This document shows positions 33,932-44,320 of a DNA stretch of 64,000 nucleotides, piece by piece. The position numbers were made by a program, and so were the translations under genes. Below the pieces are notes generated by a model that saw nothing but the letters and a program-made list of their open reading frames with translations, ran no database searches and was not told the origin of the DNA. The stretch lies in sequence record PZ386972.1, one strand, 5' to 3'. Positions within the stretch are counted from its first letter, which is position 1; the number at the start of each line of letters is the position of its first letter. Source of the stretch: a phage.

Positions 33932-34006
33932 CGGGGTGTAGTCTAAGGGAGAGGCAGGAGTCTTCTAAATTCCTTTATGCAGGTTCGAATCCTGTCACCT
34001 CGGCCA
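33932..34006 (+). tRNA. tRNA-Arg (anticodon UCU)
   Basis: Acceptor CGGGGTG/CACCTCG; D-stem; anticodon loop CTTCTAA; T-arm GCAGGTTCGAATCCTGT; encoded CCA. Confidence 0.6.
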
Positions 34007-34040
34007 ATTTTATTAACTGTAACTAAAACAAAGGAAATAT

Positions 34041-34988
34041 ATGTTTAATACTAAAAATATGAAAGAACTGACTTCTGAGCAGAAAGTAATTCGTACTATT
34101 AAACGTTGGGGTATTGGTGCTGTAGTTGGTTTAGCAGGCTTGATTCTAGCCTTTAATTCATATACTATTGTTTCTGATGGTACGGTTAAAACTCAAACAT
34201 TCCTGGGTAAAGTAGATCCTAATCCAGTATTGCCGGGTTTCCATCTTGTAAACCCGTTTGCATCTTTCGATACTTTTAGTACAAAAGATATTGCTGTAAA
34301 ATTAGATAAACTTCAGGTTCCTAGTCAGGATAAGTTTAAATCCACTGTTGACCTGACTGTTATGTTGCAATTTGATGGTTCTAAGGCACCGATTAACCGT
34401 ATTAACGCAGGTACTCAGGATCAGGCACTAGACAAGTATGTAACTGAAAAATTACTGTCTACTATTCGTGAGTTTGGTAAGTCTGTACCTAAAGCACAAG
34501 ATTTGTTTGATGCTAAAATTCAGGCTCAATTGCAAACTGCAATTCAACAGGAAGTTGAAGAGTATGCGCGCCCATATGGTTACACAGTTAAGCAGGTATT
34601 CCTTCAGGATATTACCTTGCCGCCAGTAATCATGGAACAGGTACAGAATACCAAAGTTCGTGAAGAGCAAGTTAATGCTGCGAAAGCTGAACTTGCTCGC
34701 GTTGAACAGGAAGCACAGCAAAAAGTTAAACAAGCAGAAGCAGATCGTGAAGCTCGTAACAACCAAGCTATTGCTAATGAACGTGACGCAGATGCTAAAC
34801 TGTACGCAGCTAAGAAAGAAGCTGAAGCTAACGCCGCATTGCAACGTACCATTACTCCTGAAATGATTCGTTGGAAACAACTGGAAGTTGAAATGATCCG
34901 TGCTCAGAAGTATCAAGGTGGTGTACCTCAGACTGTGGTAGGTACTGGCTACGATGGTCAAATGATCATGGATATGCGTAATAAATAA
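34041..34988 (+). CDS. SPFH/band-7 (stomatin/prohibitin-like) membrane protein
   Basis: 315 aa; N-terminal TM helix; SPFH-like core (GFHLVNPF...); C-terminal Ala/Glu/Lys-rich coiled coil. Confidence 0.55.
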   Translation: MFNTKNMKELTSEQKVIRTIKRWGIGAVVGLAGLILAFNSYTIVSDGTVKTQTFLGKVDPNPVLPGFHLVNPFASFDTFSTKDIAVKLDKLQVPSQDKFKSTVDLTVMLQFDGSKAPINRINAGTQDQALDKYVTEKLLSTIREFGKSVPKAQDLFDAKIQAQLQTAIQQEVEEYARPYGYTVKQVFLQDITLPPVIMEQVQNTKVREEQVNAAKAELARVEQEAQQKVKQAEADREARNNQAIANERDADAKLYAAKKEAEANAALQRTITPEMIRWKQLEVEMIRAQKYQGGVPQTVVGTGYDGQMIMDMRNK

Positions 34989-35013
34989 TACCCGCATGTA
35001 ACATCTGAAGTAA

Positions 35014-35046
35014 GCCCTGCGTTTCCTGGAGAGCGCAGGGCTTTTC
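35014..35046 (+). terminator. rho-independent terminator
   Basis: Hairpin GCCCTGCGTTTCCTGGAGAGCGCAGGGC followed by TTTTCT. Confidence 0.6.
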
Positions 35047-35084
35047 TATATAATGTAATTATAAAACTAACTAGGAGATTAAAC

Positions 35085-35603
35085 ATGGGTGTTGATGAAT
35101 TAACACAGCATCTTCTATCTAGAGGATTTGATGCGGATAAATATCATTGCTGGTTAAGTCCGGAAGGATGGCTAACAGTCCCGTTGTATGATTTCTCTGG
35201 GATGTTGAGGGGCTATCAAACTTATAATCCTTCTGCTCCAAAAGGTCATGGTAAGTGTCCCTTTGAAGCTAAATATTTTACCTATTCTACTACCCAGTGT
35301 GTATGGGGATTAGAAACTCTCAATGGAGATGAAAAAGTAGTATTGATCGCTGAATCTGTATTTAAGGCAGTTGCGTTACATAATGCTGGTTATCCAGCCC
35401 TAGCAATGTTGGGTTCTTCTCCAGGAAAAGCGTTATTAAAGCAACTGAAATTATTACCTTTTAAATTGGTAGCTGTCGGGGATAACGATCCTGCGGGTGA
35501 AAAATTTGCTAGAAAATTAAACGGCTTTGTTTCTCCTGTAGATGTGGATGAGATGTCTACAGAAAACTTGAAAAATTTTCTTGCTATGAAGCTAAATTTC
35601 TAA
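35085..35603 (+). CDS. TOPRIM-like domain protein
   Basis: 172 aa; VVLIAESVFKAVAL...VAVGDNDPAGEKFA resembles a TOPRIM fold. Confidence 0.4.
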   Translation: MGVDELTQHLLSRGFDADKYHCWLSPEGWLTVPLYDFSGMLRGYQTYNPSAPKGHGKCPFEAKYFTYSTTQCVWGLETLNGDEKVVLIAESVFKAVALHNAGYPALAMLGSSPGKALLKQLKLLPFKLVAVGDNDPAGEKFARKLNGFVSPVDVDEMSTENLKNFLAMKLNF

Positions 35604-35609
35604 TATAAT
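35581..35609 (+). promoter_or_regulatory. early promoter embedded in the 3' end of the 35085..35603 CDS
   Basis: TTGCTA 35581-35586, TATAAT 35604-35609. Confidence 0.55.
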
Positions 35610-35624
35610 ATATCTTATAAATTC

Positions 35625-35713
35625 GGAAGAATAGCATAACGGTATTGCAGCAGATTGCTAATCTGTCGGTTTGAAATATAGCCTTGTGGGTTCGATTCCC
35701 ACTTCTTCCACCA
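35625..35713 (+). tRNA. tRNA-Ser (anticodon GCU), long variable arm
   Basis: Acceptor GGAAGAA/TTCTTCC; anticodon loop TTGCTAA; T-arm GTGGGTTCGATTCCCAC; CCA encoded; 89 nt. Confidence 0.6.
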
Positions 35714-35719
35714 AATTCT

Positions 35720-35797
35720 GGTTCTCAAGCTCATATGGTATGAGCACCCGGCTCATAACCGGAAGGTACGTAGGTTCGAATCCTCGGGGAGCCACCA
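35720..35797 (+). tRNA. tRNA with CAU anticodon (Met, fMet or Ile2)
   Basis: Acceptor GGTTCTC/GGGAGCC; D-arm GCTC/GAGC; anticodon loop CTCATAA; weak T-stem; CCA. Confidence 0.5.
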
Positions 35798-35816
35798 AAT
35801 TAAATAAGGACAACTA

Positions 35817-36005
35817 ATGGAATTATTCATAGTTTCTGTTAAATTTGCACAAGATAGAGAACGTTCGGATGAGTTTAAACAAGGGTACAGACTAGTAAAG
35901 GCTACATCTGAACTCCATGCTATGGACAAAGTAGTAGACTATATGTATAATGTAGAAGATGTTTACTACGTCAATGCTTTAGAAGCCTCAAAAGTAATTA
36001 ACTAG
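35817..36005 (+). CDS. hypothetical protein (62 aa)
   Basis: ORF track. Confidence 0.4.
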   Translation: MELFIVSVKFAQDRERSDEFKQGYRLVKATSELHAMDKVVDYMYNVEDVYYVNALEASKVIN

Positions 36006-36014
36006 GGAGACTAT

Positions 36015-36191
36015 ATGTCTAAGTTTCAAGAACTCAAGCAAGAGCTAGAAGAGTGTGCCTGCCCTGAGTGTAGGGGAATTGGTGAAAGTTCTGATGCAGA
36101 AGCAGGAGATACTTTTTGCAATATCTGGGTTTGCCCAAATTGCAGTGGTACAGGTATTAATCCTAACTGCGGTATTTCCCCTAGATATTGA
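36015..36191 (+). CDS. small Cys-rich zinc-ribbon-like protein (58 aa), below the ORF-track cutoff
   Basis: CPECRG...CNIWVCPNCSG Cys pairs; GGGAGA RBS. Confidence 0.35.
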   Translation: MSKFQELKQELEECACPECRGIGESSDAEAGDTFCNIWVCPNCSGTGINPNCGISPRY

Positions 36192-36302
36192 ACGAGGGTA
36201 ACACCTGTGAAACTAAAAGATTATTATATTGGTTGGTTTGTGGGACTAGTAGTAGGATTTTCACTAGGCTATAATATGTATCAACTAATAAACTGATTAC
36301 AT

Positions 36303-36379
36303 GGGGGTGTAATCGAATTGGCATAGGTACTGGACTTAAAATTCAGGTTTTGTGGGTTCGAATCCCACCACCCCTACCA
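36303..36379 (+). tRNA. tRNA, anticodon uncertain (hand fold gives UAA)
   Basis: Acceptor GGGGGTG/CACCCCT; T-arm GTGGGTTCGAATCCCAC; CCA; D-arm not resolved. Confidence 0.45.
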
Positions 36380-36554
36380 ACTTAAGGAAATAAGATGTAT
36401 AGACATCCACCTCCGCCAACACGTCGTTCTAGAGAAGTTATCCTCATGGAATTGACGAAAAACTTCAAGGCAACTCTTGAAGATAGAGATCTAGGCACGG
36501 ATGAAGACATTGATTTTATTTGTAGACTATTAAAGATGAAACTGGAGAAACAAC

Positions 36555-36761
36555 ATGGCTAATCCTGAAATTACCGCACAACGTTTCATGCTTAAAGGCA
36601 TGATTGCTGAGGCAGGTATGACCCAAGAGGTTGCAGACTTTCATAAGCAATTTCTTGATATTATAACTCTAGCTAAAGAGACAGGAGAAAGAGAACACGG
36701 AGCAGCAATTATGGCTATATCTCTTATTAGCCTAGACTTAGCTGAAGAATCTGGAGTTTAG
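36555..36761 (+). CDS. hypothetical protein (68 aa)
   Basis: ORF track. Confidence 0.4.
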   Translation: MANPEITAQRFMLKGMIAEAGMTQEVADFHKQFLDIITLAKETGEREHGAAIMAISLISLDLAEESGV

Positions 36762-36791
36762 CTCCTCCAAACAGAATTTTTAAAAATGTAC

Positions 36792-36821
36792 TTGCCTTTT
36801 GCTTTAAATTTCTGGTATAAT
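36792..36821 (+). promoter_or_regulatory. early promoter
   Basis: TTGCCT 36792-36797, TATAAT 36816-36821, 18-bp spacer. Confidence 0.55.
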
Positions 36822-36851
36822 AGTTATATAAATTGATGAAGGAGTTAACGA

Positions 36852-37127
36852 ATGCAAAATCGTGTTATAGCAACTGGTATTGAAAGTGCAATCTGTAAAT
36901 CCTGGGAAGGCTGGGAAGGTGAGATTGAATGGCTTTATTTCTACGATGTAGAACTTCTGCCGGAAGTTAAAGCTAAATGTGTTGAAGCTGGCATGGCTCC
37001 AGATGCAAAAGCTGATATTGATATTTCAATGTCTGAACTTAAAGGTCGTGTAATTACTGTTAGTGATGAGGGCGAAGAAGTTTTCGAACTTCCATTCTCC
37101 TTAACTGTCGCTCCTAAGTTCGACTAA
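36852..37127 (+). CDS. hypothetical protein (91 aa)
   Basis: ORF track; GGAG RBS. Confidence 0.45.
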   Translation: MQNRVIATGIESAICKSWEGWEGEIEWLYFYDVELLPEVKAKCVEAGMAPDAKADIDISMSELKGRVITVSDEGEEVFELPFSLTVAPKFD

Positions 37128-37132
37128 CTAAT

Positions 37133-37173
37133 ACAGCACTGAGCAAGTTCTTTAAAATTTGACTTGCTCAGTG
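37133..37173 (+). terminator. 12-bp-stem hairpin whose 3' arm overlaps the next promoter's -35
   Basis: GCACTGAGCAAG ... CTTGCTCAGTGC inverted repeat. Confidence 0.4.
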
Positions 37174-37192
37174 CCATAAAACTTGATATAAT
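37164..37192 (+). promoter_or_regulatory. early promoter
   Basis: TTGCTC 37164-37169, TATAAT 37187-37192. Confidence 0.5.
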
Positions 37193-37255
37193 AGTTATCT
37201 AATTTGGAAACATATCTAAAAGTGTTTAAACTAGTATTTGAATACTTTTAAATAT

Positions 37256-37343
37256 GGGCGTTTATTCCGTAGATGGTAGCGGAGGGGATTGTAAATCCCT
37301 GGTCATTGCGACTCGAGTGGTTCGACTCCATTAACGCCCACCA
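37256..37343 (+). tRNA. tRNA-Tyr (anticodon GUA), long variable arm
   Basis: Acceptor GGGCGTT/AACGCCC; anticodon stem GGGGA/TCCCT with loop TTGTAAA; variable stem-loop; CCA. Confidence 0.65.
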
Positions 37344-37361
37344 AATTTAAAGGTAAAATAT

Positions 37362-37844
37362 ATGTACACTGATAGAATTGTTCAAGAAGCTGCAAACAGA
37401 GGTCTTATTGATCTGGGATCACCAGTTGATATAACTAAAGAGCTAATAACAGAGAGCCTTACGTTTGGCACAGCTAACTTTGGCCGAGATAGTAACCGTC
37501 GGTATAGCTTGAAACTATCAGCATTATCTTTTATTAAGTACAATAAGAGTATTGGAGAAAAATCAAGTTGTGGTTTTATCTACGCGATAACTAATCCAGC
37601 TTGGACTGATTATGTAAAAATTGGCATGTCTTCTGACCCAAAAACAAGATTAGCCAATTACCAGACATATTCTCCACTACGTGACTATAAGTTAATACAT
37701 TGGTCATTTTGGTTTAATGCTAGAGAAGCAGAGAAAATGCTTCATAATAGCTTTCCAAAAAGAATTAATGAATGGGTAGTTTTGGACAGAAGTGTAGATG
37801 AAACACTTGCTGATTTTAATAAACTATCTAATAAACAATTTTAA
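37362..37844 (+). CDS. GIY-YIG-like (T5orf172-type) domain protein within the tRNA cluster
   Basis: 160 aa; GFIYAITNPAWTDYVKIGMSSDPKTRLANYQT resembles the GIY-YIG/T5orf172 core. Confidence 0.5.
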   Translation: MYTDRIVQEAANRGLIDLGSPVDITKELITESLTFGTANFGRDSNRRYSLKLSALSFIKYNKSIGEKSSCGFIYAITNPAWTDYVKIGMSSDPKTRLANYQTYSPLRDYKLIHWSFWFNAREAEKMLHNSFPKRINEWVVLDRSVDETLADFNKLSNKQF

Positions 37845-37845
37845 T

Positions 37846-37920
37846 GCACCTATCATCTATCGGTTAGGACATCAGGTTTTCAACCTGAGAAGCTTGGTTC
37901 GATTCCGTGTGGGTGTACCA
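37846..37920 (+). tRNA. tRNA-Glu (anticodon UUC)
   Basis: Acceptor GCACCTA/TGGGTGT; anticodon stem TCAGG/CCTGA with loop TTTTCAA; CCA. Confidence 0.55.
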
Positions 37921-37928
37921 AATTCTGC

Positions 37929-38005
37929 ATTCCTAGAGTGTTACTGGACAGCATGTCGGTCTCCAAAACCGTACGGTCTAGGTTCGAGTCCTAGTAGGTT
38001 TGCCA
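37929..38005 (+). tRNA. tRNA candidate, anticodon uncertain (possibly CCA/Trp)
   Basis: T-arm CTAGGTTCGAGTCCTAG and CCA end are clear; acceptor pairing needs two U-U mismatches. Confidence 0.35.
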
Positions 38006-38011
38006 AAATTT

Positions 38012-38086
38012 GCACCTTTAGCTGAGATGGATTAGCGCTTGCCTGAAGAGCTTGAGAGGTTCGTTCGATACGAACAGGGTGCACCA
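38012..38086 (+). tRNA. tRNA candidate, anticodon uncertain (possibly GAA/Phe)
   Basis: Acceptor GCACCTT/AGGGTGC; D-arm GCTG/TAGC; T-arm GTTCGTTCGATACGAAC; CCA; loop CTGAAGA with weak stem. Confidence 0.4.
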
Positions 38087-38088
38087 AA

Positions 38089-38376
38089 TTGAGGGAGCTG
38101 CTGATGCATCCTGAAAACTTCTTTATTTACTGCGCGGATAAGTTGCTGAAACGTAGAATTAACAAAGTCTATCATTATCGTGCTAGTCAACAGCCTTATG
38201 TATACGCTTTTGACGGTGATCACATCCCATTAGAACAACTATCTTGTGATTACATGATATTGAAGAACTTTGACGAGACAAAGATCTCAAGCGTTCATAA
38301 TCGACAGAATCCCTTAACGTGGAAATATAAGAAGAAAAAGAAAGGCATCAAATTCTTAAAAAATGTAGTTGCTTAG
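38089..38376 (+). CDS. hypothetical protein (95 aa)
   Basis: ORF track. Confidence 0.4.
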   Translation: MRELLMHPENFFIYCADKLLKRRINKVYHYRASQQPYVYAFDGDHIPLEQLSCDYMILKNFDETKISSVHNRQNPLTWKYKKKKKGIKFLKNVVA

Positions 38377-38397
38377 TTTCCAAAAGTTCTGTATAAT
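38369..38397 (+). promoter_or_regulatory. early promoter
   Basis: TTGCTT 38369-38374, TATAAT 38392-38397. Confidence 0.55.
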
Positions 38398-38425
38398 AAT
38401 TACATAAATTGAACTGGAGAAGCAA

Positions 38426-38713
38426 ATGAAACGATTAGTTAGATTTAAGTGTTGTGGTTCTGAACATATTTTCACACATCTTCGTGAATTTAAAATGTGT
38501 GATTGTGGTAAATCAGGCTATGACTCAGGAGATGGGTTCTACACCCGTACTCTAGGGAACTTCAATGATCTAGAATTTGAAGATCTCGAAAAACAAGAAA
38601 AAGAATTATGTATCTGTTATGAATGTGGTGATCAAGATTACTACTCTAAAACAGGTAAGAAAGTGTGTAGCAATTGTGGTTCCGATCATGTAGCTACACA
38701 TTATGAAAGATAA
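38426..38713 (+). CDS. Cys-rich zinc-finger-like protein (95 aa)
   Basis: Multiple CxxC pairs (CDCGKSG, CYECGD, CSNCGSDH). Confidence 0.45.
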   Translation: MKRLVRFKCCGSEHIFTHLREFKMCDCGKSGYDSGDGFYTRTLGNFNDLEFEDLEKQEKELCICYECGDQDYYSKTGKKVCSNCGSDHVATHYER

Positions 38714-38718
38714 TAAAC

Positions 38719-38794
38719 CGACCGTTGGCTGAATGGCTTAGGCGAAGGATTGCAAATCCTTTTTATGTGAGTTCAAATCTCATGCGGTCGTCCA
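38719..38794 (+). tRNA. tRNA-Cys (anticodon GCA)
   Basis: Acceptor CGACCGT/GCGGTCG; anticodon stem AAGGA/TCCTT with loop TTGCAAA; T-arm GTGAGTTCAAATCTCAT; CCA. Confidence 0.6.
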
Positions 38795-39579: not shown

Positions 39580-39580
39580 T

Positions 39581-39656
39581 ACATCCATAGCTCAATGGTT
39601 AGAGCTACCGCCTCTTAAGCGGAGGGTTCTAGGTTCAAGTCCTAGTGGGTGTACCA
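39581..39656 (+). tRNA. tRNA-Lys (anticodon CUU)
   Basis: Acceptor ACATCCA/TGGGTGT; D-arm GCTC/GAGC; anticodon loop CTCTTAA; T-arm CTAGGTTCAAGTCCTAG; CCA. Confidence 0.55.
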
Positions 39657-39682
39657 AACTAAACTAGCACGAGAAATATGCT

Positions 39683-40030
39683 ATGATTAATGCTAAAGAA
39701 GAGTTGTTACTTGCCCTAAAGAATACTAAGTCTGAAGTTAAGTGTATTAAGATAGAATTCGGTTATTATGGGAACAAAGAAGTTTGGATATTACCCGTAG
39801 GTTATACAGAAAAAGATATTGAAGATTTTCTAAATAATCTAGACTTCAAATATGATTCTGGTTTCGGTGGACAATTGCTTTACGGTAACGTATGGTTTAC
39901 TGATGGAACTTGGTTAGAGCGTGGTGAATATGATGGTTCTGAATGGTGGGAGTATAAGACTACACCAGCAATCCCAGAAGAATGCCGAACAATTAATGGT
40001 GAAGTAGATCGTACTTTACTATTAAATTAA
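39683..40030 (+). CDS. hypothetical protein (115 aa)
   Basis: ORF track. Confidence 0.45.
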   Translation: MINAKEELLLALKNTKSEVKCIKIEFGYYGNKEVWILPVGYTEKDIEDFLNNLDFKYDSGFGGQLLYGNVWFTDGTWLERGEYDGSEWWEYKTTPAIPEECRTINGEVDRTLLLN

Positions 40031-40038
40031 CAAAATTT

Positions 40039-40277
40039 CAGTGCAGAACACGGAGCTAGCAATTCGGAAGTGCTGACTCATGATAGGCTGCCTATGTACT
40101 TGCGAAGCGGTCGTGTCCAAGACTCGGACTCTTGCACTGAAAACAATCAAACATTCTAGCGTGGTTGATGGGGAAACCAGCTTGGCTAGGGCAGAAGCTC
40201 GTTCGATTCGAGTGAAAGAATGGTTCTCGTAAGTCCGCACAAGTGATAACAGGTTCGAGTCCTGTCTAGAATGACAC
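40039..40277 (+). ncRNA. composite structured RNA region with closing stems and two T-arm-like hairpins, unresolved
   Basis: CAGTGCAG (40039-46) pairs CTGCACTG (40132-39); ATTCTAG (40153-59) pairs CTAGAAT (40267-73); T-arm-like hairpins at 40197-40213 and 40250-40266. Confidence 0.3.
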
Positions 40278-40422
40278 TATAAAGTTTACTTATTATGTAG
40301 GTTCCGATAGATCGGCGGGTCTATTCTGGCATTTAAGAGAGGTCTCGCAAACTTCTTTGTCAGCCGTGGGGTTGATAGCCTCCAGGTGGCCTACACAATA
40401 AGTAAATTTATTAAAAATTCAT

Positions 40423-40451
40423 TTGCTATTCTGCTTAATTATCTGTATAAT
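40423..40451 (+). promoter_or_regulatory. early promoter
   Basis: TTGCTA 40423-40428, TATAAT 40446-40451. Confidence 0.6.
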
Positions 40452-40481
40452 ATATTTTATAAAGTGAGTTAACAAAATTAA

Positions 40482-40557
40482 CAGTGCGTAGCGCAGTTGG
40501 TAGCGTGGGAGCCTTGGATGCTTCGGGTCGCAGGTTCGAGTCCTGCCGCACTGACCA
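40482..40557 (+). tRNA. tRNA-Pro (anticodon UGG)
   Basis: Acceptor CAGTGCG/CGCACTG; anticodon stem GGAGC/GCTTC with loop CTTGGAT; T-arm GCAGGTTCGAGTCCTGC; CCA. Confidence 0.65.
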
Positions 40558-40563
40558 AACAAT

Positions 40564-40641
40564 TGCGGGTTAGATCTCTGGTAGAGATCGCTAGTCTCAT
40601 AAGCTAGAAAGAGGTAGGTTCGATTCCTGCACCCGCTTCCA
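40564..40641 (+). tRNA. tRNA with CAU anticodon and a 1:72 mismatch (initiator- or Ile2-like)
   Basis: D-arm GATC/GATC; anticodon stem CTAGT/GCTAG with loop CTCATAA; T-arm with TTCGATT loop; CCA. Confidence 0.55.
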
Positions 40642-40661
40642 TTTTAATAGAGGATTTCGAA

Positions 40662-40829
40662 ATGAAAGTATTTCGATTAGTAGTAAGTGACAAACGTTTA
40701 GGTAAGAATACCTCAAAATCCTTACTTGCTCATTATGGAAAAGATGAGAAAGAAGTAATGGCGGAGTTTGGGATTAATCACCCTTACTTGAAAGTTCACT
40801 CTATTAAAGAAGTATATAATGGTTACTAA
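40662..40829 (+). CDS. hypothetical small protein (55 aa), below the ORF-track cutoff
   Basis: ATG after GAGGA; between two tRNAs. Confidence 0.3.
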   Translation: MKVFRLVVSDKRLGKNTSKSLLAHYGKDEKEVMAEFGINHPYLKVHSIKEVYNGY

Positions 40830-40830
40830 T

Positions 40831-40909
40831 AGATCGCTAGCTCAATAGGTTTAGTAGCATCCGACTTTTAATCGGAAGGTTCTGGGTTCGAGTCCCAGGC
40901 GATCTACCA
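40831..40909 (+). tRNA. tRNA-Lys (anticodon UUU)
   Basis: Acceptor AGATCGC/GCGATCT; anticodon stem TCCGA/TCGGA with loop CTTTTAA; T-arm CTGGGTTCGAGTCCCAG; CCA. Confidence 0.55.
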
Positions 40910-40927
40910 ATTTCAAGAAAAACGCAG

Positions 40928-40956
40928 TTGCTTGATGCTTAATTTCTTGTTATAAT
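40928..40956 (+). promoter_or_regulatory. early promoter followed by a 9-bp-stem leader hairpin
   Basis: TTGCTT 40928-40933, TATAAT 40951-40956; hairpin TGATGAGGA-TTT-TCCTCATCA at 40969-40989. Confidence 0.55.
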
Positions 40957-41194
40957 ATTTATATAAATTGATGAGGATTTCTCCTCATCATAGTTCACTA
41001 AGGTATTAGCTCGACCTAGGACTGGCTGCCAAAAAGCACGATCCCTACGATTCGGGAGAAGTTCTAGATTAGTCCACTAGATTCAGCGGCAACTGAATAG
41101 TGTATCGGGTTTGCGAGATGACGCGGTTCCTTCCGCTCGAAGCGAAGGTGCTGTAGTTACGCCGAGCTAATAGCCTTAGTAAACTAAAGAATTT

Positions 41195-41273
41195 GGGGAA
41201 TGGGTCTGCATGGAGTGGACACCTCGCTTGCACCGAGGACATCAGAACGGTTCGATTCCGTTATTCTCCACCA
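41195..41273 (+). tRNA. tRNA-Ala (anticodon UGC)
   Basis: Acceptor GGGGAAT/ATTCTCC; anticodon stem CCTCG/CGAGG with loop CTTGCAC; T-arm AACGGTTCGATTCCGTT; CCA. Confidence 0.6.
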
Positions 41274-41278
41274 AATAC

Positions 41279-41355
41279 GCGTGATTGATGGAATTGGCAT
41301 ACATACCGTCCTTAGAAGTCGGGTTTTGAGGGTTCGAATCCCTTGTCACGCACCA
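41279..41355 (+). tRNA. tRNA, anticodon uncertain (hand fold gives UAG)
   Basis: Acceptor GCGTGAT/GTCACGC; D-arm ATG/CAT; T-arm GAGGGTTCGAATCCCTT; CCA; anticodon stem has a U-U mismatch. Confidence 0.4.
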
Positions 41356-41440
41356 AATTTGATGGTCAGAGTAAATTAAACCTACTATCTCGGTTGAGCT
41401 GTTTTAATGGGTTCGAATCCCAGCGAGGCGTAACTGCCTG
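41356..41440 (+). ncRNA. orphan T-arm-like hairpin plus adjacent hairpin; possible tRNA remnant or small RNA
   Basis: TGGGTTCGAATCCCA at 41408-41422 and AGGCGTAACTGCCT at 41427-41440; no acceptor partner found. Confidence 0.25.
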
Positions 41441-41467
41441 GCGTGATAGAGGCATCATCTTATTATT

Positions 41468-41558
41468 GGAAGAGCAAATCGAATTGGCGACGAAAACCGC
41501 TTGGAAAGTGGCTGACTGGTAAAACGGCTTGAGAGTTCAAATCTCTCCTCTTCCGCCA
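41468..41558 (+). tRNA. tRNA-Ser (anticodon GGA), long variable arm
   Basis: Acceptor GGAAGAG/CTCTTCC; anticodon loop TTGGAAA; T-arm GAGAGTTCAAATCTCTC; CCA; 91 nt. Confidence 0.55.
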
Positions 41559-41570
41559 AACAATTTATAT

Positions 41571-41665
41571 GGTAGGTCAATCCAATGGCTGGCGCTGGAC
41601 TCCGACTTGAAATCGGTTGATCGTAGTGATACGGTGTAAGGGTTCGATCCCCTTACCTACCTCCA
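41571..41665 (+). tRNA. tRNA-Ser (anticodon UGA), long variable arm
   Basis: Acceptor GGTAGGT/ACCTACC; anticodon loop CTTGAAA; variable stem CGTA/TACG; T-arm AAGGGTTCGATCCCCTT; CCA; 95 nt. Confidence 0.55.
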
Positions 41666-41670
41666 AGTCT

Positions 41671-41802
41671 TGAAGTATGCCGGAATCGGTAGACGGGGCT
41701 GCCTAAAAGGTTTATAGGGAACATCCACTCCCTACAACATACCTCATAAAGCGGCTGAGATAAATGGTCTATCTCGTGAAGGTTCAAGTCCTTCTGCTTC
41801 TT
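41671..41802 (+). ncRNA. structured region with terminal T-arm (GAAGGTTCAAGTCCTTC) and internal hairpins, unresolved
   Basis: Hairpins TAGGGA...TCCCTA (41714-41734) and GAGATA...TATCTC (41757-41775); T-arm 41778-41794; no CCA. Confidence 0.25.
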
Positions 41803-42031
41803 GATACATCTATGGCTCAAAGTGTAACGGTGCTATTTGATGCTCTTAGTAAGACTTTCCCGACATGCGTTCGGGAGTAAGCTGCTAAGGCTAGAATAGA
41901 AGAGTTTCTGAGAGCCGCCACAATTGAAAATTCGTACTCGTCTTGAGCTGCGTGCAATAGGAGATAACTTGATTAGTATTCTAGAACATGCTAATTGAGG
42001 ATGGTTTCGCTAACCCTGCGAGTTTTCAATT

Positions 42032-42108
42032 GTGGCTATATCATAATTGGTTAATGATCCTGATTGTGAATCAGGCCTATGTGGATTCGAATTCCACTAG
42101 CCACCCCA
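42032..42108 (+). tRNA. tRNA-His (anticodon GUG)
   Basis: Acceptor GTGGCTA/TAGCCAC; D-arm TCAT/ATGA; anticodon stem CCTGA/TCAGG with loop TTGTGAA; T-arm GTGGATTCGAATTCCAC; CCA. Confidence 0.65.
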
Positions 42109-42133
42109 AATTAACTTAAATAGGAAATAAAAT

Positions 42134-42331
42134 ATGGCTGATTTCTGCAAACAATGCTCCATTGATATGTGGGGCAGAGATACTGGTGATCTTTCTGGTT
42201 TGATTACAGAAGCTGAGGTCAAAGAAGGTTATGGTGCAGTTGTGATTTGCGAAGGATGCGGAGTTATTCGAGTAGATCATGAAGGCAAACGTTTAGAAGA
42301 ACAGGAAAACTTAGGAGAAACAAATGAGTAA
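42134..42331 (+). CDS. hypothetical Cys-containing protein (65 aa)
   Basis: ORF track; RBS. Confidence 0.4.
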   Translation: MADFCKQCSIDMWGRDTGDLSGLITEAEVKEGYGAVVICEGCGVIRVDHEGKRLEEQENLGETNE

Positions 42332-42560
42332 TGCTTTAATTAGTGAAATTATGTTAACACGTCTTGCAGAACTGCAAACTCTTCGAGATGAATCTCAGAA
42401 TAACTTAGCCTACCATAAACAGATGGTAGATACTCTTACTACTCGTATTGATACTTACGAGCGTGATATTGCAGCATTACAAGCTCTTTTCTCTGTATCA
42501 GCACCAGATACGTTAGAACAGCCTGCTGTATCTCAGCCAGTAGAAACAGCATCTAGCTAA
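42324..42560 (+). CDS. hypothetical protein (78 aa)
   Basis: ORF track; overlapping start and stop. Confidence 0.4.
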   Translation: MSNALISEIMLTRLAELQTLRDESQNNLAYHKQMVDTLTTRIDTYERDIAALQALFSVSAPDTLEQPAVSQPVETASS

Positions 42561-42569
42561 TAGCATTCT

Positions 42570-42645
42570 TGGGATGTAGATCAATTGGCAGATCGTCGGC
42601 CTCTGACTCCGAAGGTTCCACGTTCGATCCGTGGCATCCCAGCCA
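42570..42645 (+). tRNA. tRNA-Gln (anticodon CUG)
   Basis: U1-A72 acceptor TGGGATG/CATCCCA; D-arm GATC/GATC; anticodon loop CTCTGAC; T-arm CCACGTTCGATCCGTGG; CCA. Confidence 0.6.
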
Positions 42646-42651
42646 AACAAT

Positions 42652-42727
42652 TGGAGAGTAGTGTAACGGTTAGCACAACGGCCTTTGACTCCGTTAATGG
42701 TAGGTTCGATTCCTCCTTCTCCAGCCA
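42652..42727 (+). tRNA. tRNA-Gln (anticodon UUG)
   Basis: U1-A72 acceptor TGGAGAG/TTCTCCA; D-arm GTGT/GCAC; anticodon loop CTTTGAC; CCA. Confidence 0.6.
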
Positions 42728-42735
42728 AGTAATAA

Positions 42736-42811
42736 GCGGTTAAGCACACGGGTTGTGTCGCAGGCCTTCCAAGCCTCGCTGAGTAGGGTTCGATTCCCTC
42801 TAGCCGCTCCA
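42736..42811 (+). tRNA. tRNA-Gly (anticodon UCC)
   Basis: Acceptor GCGGTTA/TAGCCGC; anticodon stem AGGC/GCCT with loop CTTCCAA; T-loop TTCGATT; CCA. Confidence 0.55.
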
Positions 42812-42827
42812 ACTTTAAGGAAACATT

Positions 42828-43079
42828 ATGCACGTTTTTGAGTTTCGTAATAAAAGTACCGATAAACGAGTTATTGTTATTGGAGAAACATACCGAGCAT
42901 ACGAACAAACTGACGGCTCTGTTATCCTAAACGATGAGAAAGGAGGTTTTAGCTTTTATCCAGAAGAACCTTATGAAGAGTTTCGAAAACAATTTAACCT
43001 AGACTGGAGAAAGCATTTAAACACTGTTGCTTCATCTGTAGTATTGCCAACTACCAGTACTGTACTCTCTAATGGCTGA
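42828..43079 (+). CDS. hypothetical protein (83 aa)
   Basis: ORF track; AAGGAAACA RBS. Confidence 0.4.
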   Translation: MHVFEFRNKSTDKRVIVIGETYRAYEQTDGSVILNDEKGGFSFYPEEPYEEFRKQFNLDWRKHLNTVASSVVLPTTSTVLSNG

Positions 43080-43236
43080 TAACCTAAAAGTCAAGATCGA
43101 TAAACAAAAGAAACGTGTAGAAGTAGAGATTGGTGAAGAACGTGTAGCCTTCACCTTTGAATTTCTACAACAAATGGCAATGGCGGTTATGACTGATAAG
43201 TCTCCTGTTATTGAAAAAGAAATCCCGTTGAAATAA
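43072..43236 (+). CDS. hypothetical small protein (54 aa), below the ORF-track cutoff
   Basis: ATG overlapping the upstream stop region. Confidence 0.3.
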   Translation: MADNLKVKIDKQKKRVEVEIGEERVAFTFEFLQQMAMAVMTDKSPVIEKEIPLK

Positions 43237-43244
43237 CGGGTTCT

Positions 43245-43331
43245 GCTGGGTTGGCAGAATGGTTGAATGCACCTGATTTGTAATCAGGAGGAGTAATCCC
43301 GTTGCAGGTTCGAATCCTGTGCCCAGCACCA
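43245..43331 (+). tRNA. tRNA with UGU anticodon (Thr-like) and an atypical 15-nt variable region
   Basis: Acceptor GCTGGGT/GCCCAGC; anticodon stem CCTGA/TCAGG with loop TTTGTAA; T-arm GCAGGTTCGAATCCTGT; CCA. Confidence 0.5.
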
Positions 43332-43345
43332 ACTTAAGGACTATT

Positions 43346-43513
43346 ATGTTTAAATTATTAGTAGTTATCTGGTATAGTCAATCAAATAGAGCGAATACCT
43401 CCCACGTTATAGACTTTAATACTAAAAATGAAGCTGAAAAAGCATATTCTAATTTAATAGAACGTAATAAAGAATCTCGTAGTATAGTTTATGAAGTGAC
43501 TAAACTTTATTAA
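43346..43513 (+). CDS. hypothetical protein (55 aa)
   Basis: ORF track 43319..43513, start moved to ATG 43346 after AAGGA so it no longer overlaps the tRNA. Confidence 0.35.
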   Translation: MFKLLVVIWYSQSNRANTSHVIDFNTKNEAEKAYSNLIERNKESRSIVYEVTKLY

Positions 43514-43521
43514 AAATTCAT

Positions 43522-43550
43522 TTGCTTTCTCTCTTATTTATTGTTATAAT
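43522..43550 (+). promoter_or_regulatory. early promoter
   Basis: TTGCTT 43522-43527, TATAAT 43545-43550. Confidence 0.6.
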
Positions 43551-43580
43551 ATTTATATAAATTAATGAGAGGGAAGCCAA

Positions 43581-43874
43581 ATGAAACGTTATCTTTCTGT
43601 TGTGTTCCAAACTGGTGGTCAACGCTATACCTATGAATTTCCTGGCTCTTGGAAGATCAAAGAGGGTGATCAAGTAGTAGTGTTAACACCGCGTGAGGGT
43701 TTCAAGGTAGTAACGGTTAAGCAAGTATTTCCAAAAGAGCATGAACCAGCTAAAGGCATTCGCTATAAGATGATTCATGGTGTAGTTCGTCAAGTACCAC
43801 GAGCGGAAGTCGAAATCAAAGTAGATAAAGATGGTAGACTTAAATATACCTCTTGCTTAGATGAGCTGCTATAA
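43581..43874 (+). CDS. hypothetical protein (97 aa)
   Basis: ORF track; GAGGGAAG RBS. Confidence 0.45.
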   Translation: MKRYLSVVFQTGGQRYTYEFPGSWKIKEGDQVVVLTPREGFKVVTVKQVFPKEHEPAKGIRYKMIHGVVRQVPRAEVEIKVDKDGRLKYTSCLDELL

Positions 43875-44080
43875 TGAGGATTACTTTCACAGAAAAGATC
43901 ATGAGTAATGGTGTTATGATCATTACTGCATGGGATGGCAATCAGTGGTGTAGTGTTTCAGGTATTAAGCCTGAAGAACAAACACTAGAAAATATCTCAA
44001 AGATTAAGCGAAGAATGGCAGAACGTGCACGACTTCCAGGTGCACCTAGAAATGGCAAACGTTCTGCTGCAAAATGTTAA
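43874..44080 (+). CDS. hypothetical protein (68 aa)
   Basis: ORF track. Confidence 0.45.
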   Translation: MRITFTEKIMSNGVMIITAWDGNQWCSVSGIKPEEQTLENISKIKRRMAERARLPGAPRNGKRSAAKC

Positions 44081-44081
44081 T

Positions 44082-44158
44082 GCTTCGGTAGCTTAGCGAT
44101 CTAAAGCACTCGGCTGATAACCGAGAGATCGGGGGTTTAAATCCCTCCCGGAGTACCA
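44082..44158 (+). tRNA. tRNA-Ile (anticodon GAU)
   Basis: Acceptor GCTTCGG/CCGGAGT; D-arm GCTT/AAGC; anticodon stem CTCGG/CCGAG with loop CTGATAA; T-loop TTTAAAT; CCA. Confidence 0.6.
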
Positions 44159-44244
44159 AATTTAGGAATTAAGACTATGCGTCCAGGAAAGTTTAAAAAA
44201 GCTAATTGGTCTAAAGAGTATAAAGAATACTTACTTAGTCTAGT

Positions 44245-44320
44245 AAAACATAACAGTTAGTTGGCAGAGTGGTTATGCACCTCCTTCATACGGAGCGACT
44301 ACAGTGGTTCAAATCCACTA
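44245..44320 (+). tRNA. tRNA with CAU anticodon (third CAU tRNA in the cluster)
   Basis: Acceptor AGTTAGT/ACTAACT; anticodon loop TTCATAC; T-arm AGTGGTTCAAATCCACT; CCA. Confidence 0.55.

What the first reader, a model, noticed from the sequence alone, without database searches (positions are those of the whole stretch)
33932..44320. tRNA cluster of about 26 genes with atypical architectures
Hand folding gives type-II-length molecules with anticodons not normally associated with long variable arms (UGU at 43245-43331, GUU at 38947-39029), and short type-I molecules with Leu-type anticodons UAA (36303) and UAG (41279). Either the folds are wrong or this phage carries structurally unusual tRNAs.
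Basis: partly seen in the sequence, partly recalled or inferred. Interest (0 to 1): 0.4.

Follow-up and report, generated by a model that had tools for sequence, protein, structure and literature searches.

The report
Phage tRNAs with swapped variable arms
A T5-like phage really does encode threonine and asparagine tRNAs with an extra arm and leucine tRNAs lacking theirs, and these odd shapes are widespread in phages and probably help phage tRNAs escape bacterial tRNA-cutting defence enzymes.

Summary

The window is a Tequintavirus (T5-like) tRNA region holding about 27 tRNA genes. All four tRNAs keep the E. coli identity elements for their anticodon's amino acid.

T5 itself carries the opposite alleles: type-I Thr and Asn with mutated anticodon stems, and a type-II Leu. 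The window's Thr and Asn keep host-like anticodon stems, including the AriB and P2-OLD cleavage motifs, but add the arm.

Long-arm Asn and Thr(UGU) tRNAs occur in at least 90-120 IMG/VR contigs each, with strong covariation in the arm. They are nearly absent from 185,579 bacterial species genomes. Type-I Leu makes up about a third of Leu tRNAs in phage clusters.

Published work shows that the identical Thr gene, from phage Bas33, strongly counters P2 OLD. None of the defence papers read mentions the variable arm.

Best reading: these are nuclease-evading replacement tRNAs whose remodelled core gives the resistance. That last step is inferred, not shown.

The parts
33358..44330 (+). tRNA gene region of a T5-like (Tequintavirus) phage. 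It holds about 27 tRNA or tRNA-like genes interspersed with small ORFs.
   Evidence: Searches give the gene set. The region is 95-98% identical over 12 kb to Salmonella phage SCF, Escherichia phage slur09 and T5_ev212.
43245..43331 (+). tRNA-Thr(UGU), 87 nt, with class-II architecture. It has a 15-nt variable region (GGA-GUAA-UCC hairpin) and a 3-bp D stem with an 11-nt D loop. It carries G1-C72, C2-G71 and A73. Its anticodon stem CCUGA/UCAGG keeps C28UG30, C40AG42 and U36AAUCA41, as in E. coli thrU.
   Evidence: ARAGORN. Rfam 58.9 bits. Parsing. 100% identical to the Bas33/HildyBeyeler gene (H55). Variable-stem covariation.
38947..39029 (+). tRNA-Asn(GUU), 83 nt. It has a type-I D arm plus a 13-nt variable region (GUC-GAAA-GAC hairpin) and G73. 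Its anticodon stem GUGGA/UCCAU keeps U36AAUCC41, as in E. coli asnT.
   Evidence: ARAGORN. Rfam 59.0 bits. The minimum-free-energy fold is a five-arm cloverleaf. Comparison with asnT. Covariation.
36303..36379 (+). tRNA-Leu(UAA), 77 nt, type I (variable loop GUUUU). Its D arm is Leu-type (3-bp stem; loop GAAUUGGCAUA with A14, A15, G18G19 and A20a). It also has U48 and A73.
   Evidence: Rfam 57.4 bits. Searches give the comparison with E. coli leuZ. 293 phage records are at least 99% identical.
41279..41355 (+). tRNA-Leu(UAG), 77 nt, type I (variable loop GUUUU). It has the same Leu-type D arm, A15, U48 and A73. There is a U30.U40 mismatch in the anticodon stem.
   Evidence: Rfam 47.5 bits.. 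The syntenic gene in T5 is an 85-nt type-II Leu(UAG). Homologues occur in Felixounavirus and other phages.
40831..40909 (+). tRNA-Lys(UUU), 79 nt, with an enlarged D loop and a host-like U36AAUC40. It is the third isoacceptor targeted by AriB and OLD. It is a different allele from T5's (UAAACC).
35625..35713 (+). tRNA-Ser(GCU), 89 nt, a canonical class-II tRNA with a 19-nt variable region. It serves as an internal reference for a Ser-type variable arm.
37256..37343 (+). tRNA-Tyr(GUA), 88 nt, a canonical class-II tRNA with a 15-nt variable region.
   Evidence: Rfam matched it only through the tRNA-Sec model.
41468..41558 (+). tRNA-Ser(GGA), 91 nt. It was missed by ARAGORN and by Rfam.
   Evidence: 98.9% identical to the annotated tRNA-Ser of T5_ev212.
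41571..41665 (+). tRNA-Ser(UGA), 95 nt including CCA.
   Evidence: Rfam tRNA-Sec model, 37.6 bits. 100% identical to the annotated T5_ev212 tRNA-Ser.
35720..35797 (+). tRNA with a CAU anticodon. The syntenic gene is annotated tRNA-Ile2 in T5.
   Evidence: Rfam 40.3 bits..
42736..42811 (+). tRNA-Gly(UCC).
   Evidence: Weak Rfam hit. 98.7% identical to the annotated tRNA-Gly of T5_ev212.
33358..33429 (+). tRNA-like gene with no encoded CCA and a poor anticodon stem.
   Evidence: Rfam 35.5 bits. ARAGORN calls the T5 and Bas33 homologues 'Ser(act)'. In T5 it lies inside the stable 'RNAX'.

Best explanation
The four flagged genes are genuine, expressed-type elongator tRNAs of a T5-like phage. They decode their normal codons with their normal amino acids.

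**Identity elements (shown from sequence).**
- Thr(UGU) has G1-C72, C2-G71, G35 and U36.
- Asn(GUU) has the GUU anticodon plus G73.
- The two Leu tRNAs have A73, the A15:U48 pair, G18G19 and A20a. These are the elements E. coli LeuRS uses. It needs neither the anticodon nor the long arm.

**What differs.** The difference is the architecture of the hinge.
- Thr has a full class-II core: a 3-bp D stem, an 11-nt D loop and a variable-arm hairpin.
- Asn has a variable-arm hairpin grafted on a type-I core.
- Leu has lost its arm.

**Why (part shown, part inferred).** The tRNAs are nuclease-resistant replacements for host tRNAs that defence systems destroy.
- T5 itself escapes by mutating the anticodon stem of type-I Thr and Asn.
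- The window's alleles keep the host-like stem, including the cleavage motifs, and carry the extra arm instead.

[quoted passage not shown] Loss of the arm in Leu is tolerated because LeuRS ignores it. It may remove a handle for arm-directed nucleases of the PtuAB type, which cut the tRNA-Tyr arm.
For: **The structures are real.**

**Identity elements.** The identity rules are taken from PMC9976931.

**Allele pattern within T5-like phages.** In 18 T5-like loci only two Thr alleles and two Asn alleles occur.
- Long arm with a host-like stem: CCUGA/UCAGG for Thr and GUGGA/UCCAU for Asn.
- Short loop with a mutated stem: GUUGC/GCAUC for Thr and GCAUC/GUUGA for Asn.

E. coli thrU and asnT were fetched for comparison.

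**Allele frequencies in GenBank phages at 90% identity or more.**
- Thr: about 100 records with the long arm and about 310 with the short loop.
- Asn: about 285 with the long arm and about 136 with the short loop.

**Selection on the arm.**
- In 25 distinct Asn cores the three core arm pairs are paired in 75 of 75 cells, with both-side changes in 13, 10 and 4 sequences. The covariation score is 0.555, against 0.14 when shuffled (0 of 500) and at most 0.11 when slid.
- In 29 Thr cores 87% of cells are paired, with both-side changes in 11, 10 and 14 sequences. The score is 0.688 against 0.216.

**Breadth.**
- 92 IMG/VR stretches match a long-arm Asn pattern, giving 68 distinct sequences.
- At least 120 IMG/VR stretches match a long-arm Thr pattern, giving 76 distinct Thr(UGU) sequences.
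- The long arms also occur in T4-like phages CBH8 and PX29.
- Only 17 hits were found in one genome each of 185,579 bacterial and archaeal species. Most confirmed ones lie in tRNA arrays or clusters.

**Specificity by anticodon.** In long-Asn loci, variable regions of 10 nt or more occur in Thr(UGU) 13 of 32, but in Arg 0 of 63, Gly(UCC) 0 of 30 and Lys(UUU) 1 of 46.

**Published function.**
- AriB targets Lys(UUU), Thr(UGU) and Asn(GUU) at position 40/41 (PMC12409363).
- P2 OLD cuts after C28 and C40 of CNG motifs, prefers Thr(UGU), and is countered by phage Thr(UGU) tRNAs (PMC12445682).
- The Thr(UGU) gene of Bas33 is 100% identical to the window's. It gave strong counter-defence against OLD, whereas T5's gave only partial rescue (bioRxiv 10.64898/2026.07.10.737580).
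- Bas33 lacks Lys(UUU). T5 tRNA-Lys alone rescues it from PARIS, while T7 needs Lys plus Thr.

**Type-I Leu is common in phage clusters.** It accounts for 16 of 42 distinct Leu tRNAs in control clusters. Of 30 distinct type-I Leu tRNAs, 28 have A73.
Against: - No experiment isolates the arm. Resistance of the Bas33/window Thr could instead come from the 27-43 pair, from U32, or from D-loop differences.
- T4's type-I Thr(UGU) also counters OLD strongly, so an arm is not necessary for resistance.
- Across diverse phages, long-arm and short-loop Thr(UGU) tRNAs keep UAAUCA equally often, 6 of 15 against 17 of 42. The 'arm instead of stem mutation' pattern is therefore seen only within T5-like phages, with two isotypes.
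- Long arms also occur on phage Cys, Trp, Ile and Asp tRNAs. These are not known primary targets.
- No nuclease aimed at the tRNA-Leu arm is known. E. coli LeuRS failed to charge a Streptomyces type-I tRNA-Leu (PMC6614811), so leucylation of the phage type-I Leu is inferred, not shown.
- ThrRS and AsnRS are class II enzymes that face the variable-loop side of the tRNA (general knowledge). That they tolerate the arm is inferred from conservation only.
Confidence: 0.55

Rival explanations
1. Tolerated structural polymorphism. The variable region is not an identity element for ThrRS, AsnRS or LeuRS, so arms come and go neutrally. Recombination in the tRNA region swaps gene cassettes between phages. 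The tRNAs serve only codon supply, or resist nucleases for other reasons.
For: - Both architectures coexist as alleles at the same positions in T5-like phages.
- Homing-endonuclease genes sit in the region.
- Across diverse phages the arm shows no association with retention of the cleavage motif.
- Type-I T4 Thr also counters OLD.
Against: - The arm helices are maintained by compensatory change over very divergent phages.
- The arms are concentrated on particular anticodons and absent from Arg, Gly and Lys.
- They are almost missing from cellular genomes.
- Within T5-like phages, arm presence and stem mutation are mutually exclusive for both Thr and Asn.
Confidence: 0.25
2. Identity switch. 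The added arm turns the Thr and Asn tRNAs into substrates of SerRS, or of LeuRS in the case of the A73-bearing Thr, as with nematode nev-tRNAs. Alternatively the armless 'Leu' tRNAs are charged with another amino acid. Either way the phage would deliberately mistranslate.
For: - The window's Asn has G1-C72, G2-C71 and G73, which also belong to the Ser identity set.
- The window's Thr has A73, A15 and U48, as Leu tRNAs do.
- There is precedent in nev-tRNAs (PMC3333845).
Against: - Arm stems are modally 3 bp in Asn and Thr, against 5 bp in the Ser tRNAs of the same loci.
- Thr has C2-G71, an antideterminant for SerRS (PMC9976931).
- Thr's G18G19 are in Ser-type register, not Leu-type register.
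- Most phage long-arm Thr tRNAs have U73, not A73.
- Most long-arm Asn tRNAs start with U1, as E. coli asnT does.
- The identical Thr gene restores phage growth when host Thr(UGU) is destroyed.
- 28 of 30 type-I Leu tRNAs have A73.
Confidence: 0.06
3. Decoys. The odd tRNAs are not used in translation. They bind and titrate the defence nucleases.
For: Belukhina et al. raise competition as a possibility for over-expressed viral tRNAs.
Against: - Expression of a phage Thr(UGU) (Bas32) did not protect the host tRNA from OLD. It supplemented the pool.
- The identity elements and an encoded CCA are conserved.
Confidence: 0.05
4. Mis-folding or annotation artefact. On this view the real molecules have standard architecture.
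For: Minimum-free-energy folding alone does not recover the cloverleaf for Thr or for the two Leu.
Against: - ARAGORN and the Rfam covariance model agree on the structures.
- Gene lengths leave no alternative. [quoted passage not shown]
- Covariation supports the arm.
Confidence: 0.01

Closest known systems
tRNA gene region of bacteriophage T5 (AY543070; Tequintavirus)
   Same: The gene order is syntenic, with the same set of isoacceptors, interspersed small ORFs and homing endonucleases. Many tRNAs are identical or nearly so, for example His, Ile(GAU), Met, Cys, Arg and Ser(GCU).
   Different: At four positions T5 carries the opposite architecture.
- Thr(UGU) is 75 nt and type I.
- Asn is 78 nt and type I.
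- Leu(UAG) is 85 nt and type II.
- There is no type-I Leu(UAA).

T5's Lys(UUU) allele also differs.
Phage-encoded nuclease-resistant tRNAs: T5 tRNA-Lys, Thr and Asn against PARIS AriB; phage Thr(UGU) against P2 OLD; T5 tRNA-Tyr against retron-Eco7/Septu PtuAB
   Same: They share the same anticodons as the nuclease targets. The window's Thr gene is identical to the Bas33 gene that counters OLD.
   Different: Described escape is by base substitutions in or near the cleavage site, or by a shortened anticodon stem. For Tyr it is by a different sequence of an arm that is normally there. Here the cleavage motif is intact and a whole arm has been added (Thr, Asn) or removed (Leu). The papers read never use the word 'variable' for Thr or Asn.
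Canonical bacterial class-II tRNAs (Leu, Ser, Tyr)
   Same: The window's Thr has the class-II D arm (3-bp stem, 11-nt loop) and a variable-arm hairpin. The Asn and Thr arms have GNRA loops about as often as the Ser and Leu arms do.
   Different: The anticodons and acceptor identity are Thr and Asn. The arm stems are short, modally 3 bp. Asn keeps a type-I D arm.
Type-I tRNA-Leu of Streptomyces coelicolor (CAA) and of mitochondria
   Same: They are Leu-anticodon tRNAs with a 4-5-nt variable loop and A73 (PMC6614811).
   Different: The phage molecules keep the E. coli-type Leu D loop (A15, G18G19, A20a) and U48, and must be charged by enterobacterial LeuRS. That enzyme did not charge the Streptomyces type-I tRNA.
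Nematode nev-tRNAs (class-II tRNAs with Gly or Ile anticodons, charged with Leu)
   Same: They carry a long variable arm on anticodons that normally belong to type-I tRNAs (PMC3333845).
   Different: nev-tRNAs have a Leu identity set and mistranslate. The phage tRNAs carry the cognate Thr and Asn identity elements.

Membership tests
tRNA (Rfam RF00005) | [quoted passage not shown] | tested here: met
   The four genes score 47.5-59.0 bits against a gathering score of 29. ARAGORN calls all four.
Class-II (long variable arm) tRNA | Variable region longer than 10 nt that forms a stem-loop | tested here: met
   Thr has 15 nt and Asn 13 nt, each a 3-bp stem with a GNRA loop. Covariation supports the stem. 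The two Leu genes have 5 nt, so they do not meet this feature.
Class-II (long variable arm) tRNA | Class-II D arm: 3-bp D stem with an enlarged D loop | tested here: met
   Met for Thr (GCA/UGC stem, 11-nt loop) and also for both armless Leu genes. Not met for the window's Asn, which has a 4-bp stem and a 7-nt loop. The Bas33 Asn allele does have the class-II D arm.
E. coli tRNA-Leu identity set | A73, the A15:U48 pair, G18G19 in Leu register and A20a. The long arm and the anticodon are not required (PMC9976931). | tested here: met
   Both Leu genes have the D loop GAAUUGGCAUA, U48 and A73, and align with E. coli leuZ (GAAUCGGUAGA).
E. coli tRNA-Leu identity set | Leucylation by LeuRS | not testable with these tools
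   This needs a charging assay. As a caution, E. coli LeuRS did not charge Streptomyces type-I tRNA-Leu(CAA).
tRNA-Thr identity set (E. coli) | G1-C72, C2-G71, and anticodon G35 and U36 | tested here: met
   The acceptor stem is GCUGGGU/GCCCAGC and the anticodon is UGU. Nearly all of 76 phage long-arm Thr tRNAs begin with GC and end with GC.
tRNA-Asn identity set (E. coli) | Anticodon GUU plus discriminator G73 | tested here: met
   G73 is present in nearly all of 68 distinct long-arm Asn tRNAs.
tRNA-Ser identity set (SerRS substrate) | A long variable arm of Ser-type size, with G2-C71 and G73 | tested here: not met
   - The arm stems are 3 bp, against a modal 5 bp in the Ser tRNAs of the same loci. 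The window's Ser(GCU) has a 19-nt variable region.
- Thr has C2-G71 and A73.
- Asn does have G2-C71 and G73, so only the arm size argues against serylation of Asn.
Anti-defence (nuclease-resistant replacement) phage tRNA | Same anticodon as a host tRNA destroyed by a defence nuclease | tested here: met
   Thr(UGU), Asn(GUU) and Lys(UUU) are targets of AriB and P2 OLD. No Leu-directed system was found in the literature searched.
Anti-defence (nuclease-resistant replacement) phage tRNA | Rescues infection or growth when the nuclease is active, and resists cleavage | not testable with these tools
   Published for the identical Thr gene of Bas33 against OLD, and indirectly against PARIS. Not tested for the window's Asn, Leu or Lys alleles.
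Anti-defence (nuclease-resistant replacement) phage tRNA | Sequence change at the nuclease's cleavage or recognition site | tested here: not met
   The window's Thr keeps C28UG30, C40AG42 and U36AAUCA41. The window's Asn keeps U36AAUCC41. Both match the E. coli genes. The difference lies in the arm and the D arm instead.
nev-tRNA-like mistranslating class-II tRNA | Class-II tRNA carrying the Leu identity set but a non-Leu anticodon | tested here: inconclusive
   The window's Thr has A73, A15 and U48, but its G18G19 are in Ser-type register and it has the Thr acceptor pairs. Most phage homologues have U73.

The most novel reading that the evidence does not exclude
[quoted passage not shown] Loss of the arm from tRNA-Leu is the mirror strategy against nucleases that recognise class-II arms. 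On this reading tRNA class, type I or type II, is a trait under arms-race selection. The textbook rule that only Leu, Ser and Tyr carry the arm holds for cells but not for their viruses.
Probability: 0.3. Interest if true: 0.75.

Novelty: new variant of a known kind. Interest (0 to 1): 0.6.

Why it matters
tRNA-targeting defence systems and phage counter-tRNAs are an active field. Resistance has so far been explained by point changes in the anticodon stem-loop.

The window shows a second solution. The host-like cleavage site is kept and the tRNA core is rebuilt, with an arm added on Thr and Asn and removed from Leu. This architecture is common in phages and mobile tRNA arrays, is under purifying selection, and is nearly absent from cellular genomes.

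It offers a ready natural experiment: allele pairs within T5-like phages, one of which is already shown to counter OLD better than T5's. This could show how TOPRIM tRNases recognise whole tRNAs.

It also bears on annotation, since isotype models may flag such genes as odd or as pseudogenes. It also suggests tRNA scaffolds that resist nucleases yet remain chargeable.

Tried and rejected
1. **Arm versus cleavage motif across diverse phages.** I tested whether Thr(UGU) tRNAs with an arm keep the UAAUCA/CNG motif more often than those without. They do not: 6 of 15 against 17 of 42. The either/or pattern holds only within T5-like phages.

2. **GNRA loops as a special feature of the new arms.** Rejected. 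GNRA frequency is 53% in Asn and 35% in Thr, similar to the canonical arms of Ser (43%) and Leu (40%).

3. **Nearest E. coli relatives by BLAST against 5,426 E. coli genomes.** There was no hit for Thr and only T-arm fragments for Leu(UAA). This was uninformative, so I fetched thrU, asnT and leuZ directly.

4. **Thermodynamic folding alone.** It recovers the cloverleaf only for Asn, so I did not use it as evidence either way for the others.

5. **Literature searches for a prior description of long-arm Thr or Asn, or type-I Leu, in phages.** Nothing was found. A 2020 review of non-canonical tRNAs does not mention phages. The older non-open-access T5 and BF23 literature could not be searched. 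No supplementary files of the PARIS and OLD papers were held as text.

6. **Whether Bas32's Thr(UGU), shown by northern blot to survive OLD, is also long-armed.** I could not identify the record.

Full report
**Observation.** ARAGORN finds 22 tRNA genes on the + strand between 33932 and 44330.
- Thr(UGU) at 43245-43331, 87 nt
- Asn(GUU) at 38947-39029, 83 nt
- Leu(UAA) at 36303-36379, 77 nt
- Leu(UAG) at 41279-41355, 77 nt

The Rfam tRNA model scores these four at 58.9, 59.0, 57.4 and 47.5 bits, against a gathering score of 29. [quoted passage not shown]

Parsing every gene into its arms gives these variable regions:
- Thr: AGGAGUAAUCCCGUU (GGA-GUAA-UCC hairpin)
- Asn: GUCGAAAGACAAC (GUC-GAAA-GAC hairpin)
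- both Leu: GUUUU

The phage's own Ser(GCU) and Tyr have 19 and 15 nt. Asn folds into a five-arm cloverleaf as its minimum-free-energy structure.

Five further genes were missed by one or both programs:
- a CAU tRNA at 35720-35797
- Ser(GGA) at 41468-41558
- Ser(UGA) at 41571-41665
- Gly(UCC) at 42736-42811
- a tRNA-like gene at 33358-33429

The total is therefore about 27.

**What the window is.** The 12-kb region is 95-98% identical to T5-like phages: Salmonella phage SCF, Escherichia phages slur09 and T5_ev212, and hundreds more. All belong to Demerecviridae, genus Tequintavirus. Annotators already name the four genes tRNA-Thr, tRNA-Asn and tRNA-Leu, without comment.

**Anatomy and identity elements.** I fetched E. 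coli K-12 thrU, asnT and leuZ and laid them beside the phage genes.

- *Thr.* The phage Thr has G1-C72, C2-G71, A73 and the anticodon UGU, which is the E. coli threonine identity set. Unlike thrU it has a 3-bp D stem with an 11-nt D loop (GAAUGGUUGAA). That is a full class-II core.
- *Asn.* The phage Asn has GUU plus G73, the asparagine set. It keeps a type-I D arm and simply carries an added hairpin.
- *Leu.* Both Leu genes have the Leu-type D arm (3-bp stem; loop GAAUUGGCAUA, against leuZ's GAAUCGGUAGA), with A14, A15, G18G19 and A20a, plus U48 and A73.

According to the review of identity rules (PMC9976931), E. coli LeuRS needs A73, the A15:U48 pair, G18G19 and A20a. tRNA-Leu variants lacking the long arm, and even the anticodon arm, remain active. 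Each of the four therefore carries the identity set of its anticodon's amino acid. The parts that differ are not identity elements. Actual charging was not testable here. As a caution, E. coli LeuRS did not charge a Streptomyces type-I tRNA-Leu (PMC6614811).

**Alternative alleles within T5-like phages.** T5 itself (AY543070) carries the opposite architecture at the syntenic positions:
- Thr(UGU): 75 nt, type I, anticodon stem GUUGC/GCAUC
- Asn: 78 nt, type I, anticodon stem GCAUC/GUUGA
- Leu(UAG): 85 nt, type II

In 18 T5-like loci only these two kinds of Thr allele and two kinds of Asn allele occur.
- The long-arm alleles keep a host-like anticodon stem. Thr is CCUGA/UCAGG against thrU's ACUGA/UCAGU. 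Asn is GUGGA/UCCAU against asnT's GCGGA/UCCGU.
- The short-loop alleles have a mutated stem.

At 90% identity or more, GenBank phages hold about 100 long-arm and about 310 short-loop Thr genes. They hold about 285 long-arm and about 136 short-loop Asn genes. A T5orf172-type endonuclease ORF (37362-37844) lies between Tyr and Glu in the window, which are adjacent in T5_ev212. T5 has HNH endonucleases in the same region. These offer a route for swapping gene cassettes.

**The architecture is general in phages.**

*Long-arm Asn.* A pattern that demands a long gap between the Asn anticodon loop and the T loop finds 92 stretches in IMG/VR. ARAGORN turns them into 68 distinct Asn(GUU) genes. Their variable regions are mostly 11-20 nt, nearly all have a 2-6-bp hairpin, and G73 is almost invariant. 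The contigs range from 13 to 476 kb and the acceptor stems are unrelated.

On 25 distinct cores of equal length the three core arm pairs are paired in 75 of 75 cells. Both sides changed in 13, 10 and 4 sequences. The covariation score is 0.555, against 0.14 in shuffles (0 of 500) and at most 0.11 when partners are slid. That is as good as the T stem.

Of the matches, 98 are Thr(UGU) and 76 are distinct. Nearly all have G1-C72 and C2-G71. On 29 cores the arm is paired in 87% of cells, with both-side changes in 11, 10 and 14 sequences.

*Other phage families.* T4-like phages also have these tRNAs. Serratia phage CBH8 has an Asn with the same arm as the window. Aeromonas phage PX29 has both a long Asn and a long Thr, with different, compensated stems.

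*Cellular genomes.* In one genome for each of 185,579 bacterial and archaeal species, the long-Asn pattern hits only 17 times. ARAGORN confirms a long arm in nine of these. Three lie in Micromonospora or Verrucosispora arrays of 32-36 tRNAs, three in clusters of 7-21 tRNAs on metagenome-assembled contigs, and three stand alone.

*Specificity.* Long arms are not spread evenly. In the long-Asn loci they occur on Thr(UGU) 13 of 32, Cys 7 of 38 and Trp 7 of 37. They occur on Arg 0 of 63, Gly(UCC) 0 of 30 and Lys(UUU) 1 of 46.

*Type-I Leu.* Type-I Leu is also general. It accounts for 16 of 42 distinct Leu tRNAs in control phage clusters and 28 of 75 in the long-Asn loci. Of 30 distinct ones, 28 have A73. 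Homologues of the window's Leu(UAG) occur in Felixounavirus and other myophages.

**What is known about function.**

- *PARIS.* The TOPRIM nuclease AriB of PARIS cuts E. coli tRNA-Lys(UUU), Thr(UGU) and Asn(GUU) between positions 40 and 41, in the context U36AAUC|A41. T5's Lys, Thr and Asn tRNAs together neutralise PARIS. Their resistance is ascribed to substitutions around the site and in the D loop (PMC12409363).
- *P2 OLD.* P2 OLD cuts after C28 and C40 of paired CNG motifs, prefers Thr(UGU), and also cuts Lys(UUU) and Asn(GUU). Phage Thr(UGU) tRNAs suppress it, and they are said to resist through altered CNG motifs and a shortened stem (PMC12445682).
[quoted passage not shown] T5's gives only partial rescue. 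A phage tRNA supplements the host tRNA pool and does not shield host tRNA from OLD.
- *Bas33 is the window's allele.* Bas33 is phage HildyBeyeler. Its Thr gene is 100% identical to the window's (H55). Bas33 also has a long-arm Asn whose stem is fully replaced (AUCC-GCAA-GGAU), both type-I Leu genes, and no Lys(UUU).
- *Bas33 against PARIS.* Bas33 is rescued from PARIS by T5 tRNA-Lys alone, whereas T7 needs Lys plus Thr.

The exact Thr molecule of this window is therefore already shown to work and to counter OLD. Yet it keeps C28UG30, C40AG42 and UAAUCA intact. None of these papers uses the word 'variable' in connection with Thr or Asn.

The variable arm is a known battleground for tRNA-Tyr. 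[quoted passage not shown]

**Mechanism proposed.**

*Shown:*
- The structures are real, under selection and phage-enriched.
- The identity elements are cognate.
- The identical Thr gene counters OLD.

*Inferred:*
- Resistance of the long-arm alleles resides in the rebuilt hinge: the arm, plus for Thr the class-II D arm. It does not reside in the cleavage site. The arm emerges next to the 3' strand of the anticodon stem, a few nucleotides from position 40/41. The AlphaFold 3 model in PMC12409363 has the AriB dimer spanning from that site to D-loop positions 16 and 17.
- For Leu, the arm can be dropped because LeuRS does not read it, whereas Ser and Tyr cannot drop theirs. In all loci examined, Ser was never short and Tyr almost never. 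What pressure favours dropping it is unknown. An arm-directed nuclease is a guess.

**Weaknesses.**
- No experiment isolates the arm.
- T4's type-I Thr also counters OLD.
- Across diverse phages, arm presence is not associated with retention of the motif.
- Arms also occur on Cys, Trp, Ile and Asp tRNAs.
- The GNRA loops are not special.

A neutral, tolerated polymorphism spread by recombination remains a serious rival. Mischarging with Ser or Leu, and pure decoy function, are unlikely. The reasons are the arm size, C2-G71, the D-loop register, the discriminator statistics and the rescue data, but only charging assays can exclude them.

**Comparison and novelty.** The cluster itself is the well-known T5-type tRNA region, and phage tRNAs as counter-defence are established. 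Three things appear undescribed in the literature I could search:
- Many phage Thr(UGU) and Asn(GUU) tRNAs are class-II-like.
- Many phage Leu tRNAs are type I.
- In T5-like phages these architectures alternate with stem-mutated alleles.

Older subscription-journal work on T5 and BF23 tRNAs could not be checked. I rate the finding a new variant of a known kind, with interest of about 0.6.

Noticed in passing
window 35085-35603 (+): A 172-aa ORF inside the tRNA cluster, just upstream of tRNA-Ser(GCU), has a Toprim-like domain (Pfam Toprim_2, E = 2e-5, 25.2 bits against a cut-off of 22.1). It is the homologue of T5.076, which is noted in the T5 record as matching a Toprim/OLD sub-domain. This is the same domain family as the AriB and OLD nucleases that attack the tRNAs encoded next to it. 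It could be a processing enzyme or a mimic.
   Followed up: no
window 37362-37844 (+): A 160-aa ORF with T5orf172/MUG113 domains (endonuclease-like) lies between tRNA-Tyr and tRNA-Glu. These two genes are only 8 nt apart in T5_ev212. It is probably a mobile endonuclease insertion. Such genes could drive the exchange of tRNA alleles between T5-like phages.
   Followed up: partly
window 41468-41558 (+): A 91-nt tRNA-Ser(GGA) with an unusual D arm is missed by both ARAGORN and Rfam, even at E up to 1. It was found only by similarity to the annotated gene of T5_ev212.
   Followed up: partly
window 40831-40909 (+): tRNA-Lys(UUU) is 79 nt, with an enlarged and partly mismatched D arm (UAGCUCAAUAGGUUUAGUAGC) and a host-like U36AAUC40. 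T5's allele has UAAACC instead. It may be a third case of escaping AriB by changing the D loop and hinge instead of the cut site.
   Followed up: partly
window 41279-41355 (+): The type-I Leu(UAG) has a U30.U40 mismatch in the anticodon stem. It is conserved in all seven T5-like copies seen. Position 40 is where TOPRIM tRNases cut other tRNAs.
   Followed up: no
window about 41409-41421 (+): An orphan T-arm-like motif (GGGTTCGAATCCC) sits between Leu(UAG) and Ser(GGA) with no complete tRNA around it. T5 annotates several 'tRNA-like stable RNAs of unknown function' in the corresponding intervals.
   Followed up: no
L097, L098, L099 (Verrucosispora and Micromonospora genomes): Arrays of 32-36 tRNA genes within 8 kb show the same combination as the phage: Asn with a 17-nt variable region and Leu(CAG/CAA/GAG) with 5-7-nt loops. 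Mobile tRNA arrays of actinomycetes may share the phage-type architectures.
   Followed up: no
L005, L012, L026, L028-L031, L048, L074, L093 and others (IMG/VR contigs): Hairpin variable arms, often GNRA-capped, also occur on phage tRNA-Cys(GCA), Trp(CCA), Ile(GAU), Asp, Gln and Met.
   Followed up: no
window 34041-34988 (+) and 44605-44973 (+): An SPFH/Band-7 protein and a GrcA-like glycyl-radical 'spare part' protein flank or sit within the tRNA region. This matches the annotation of related phages.
   Followed up: no
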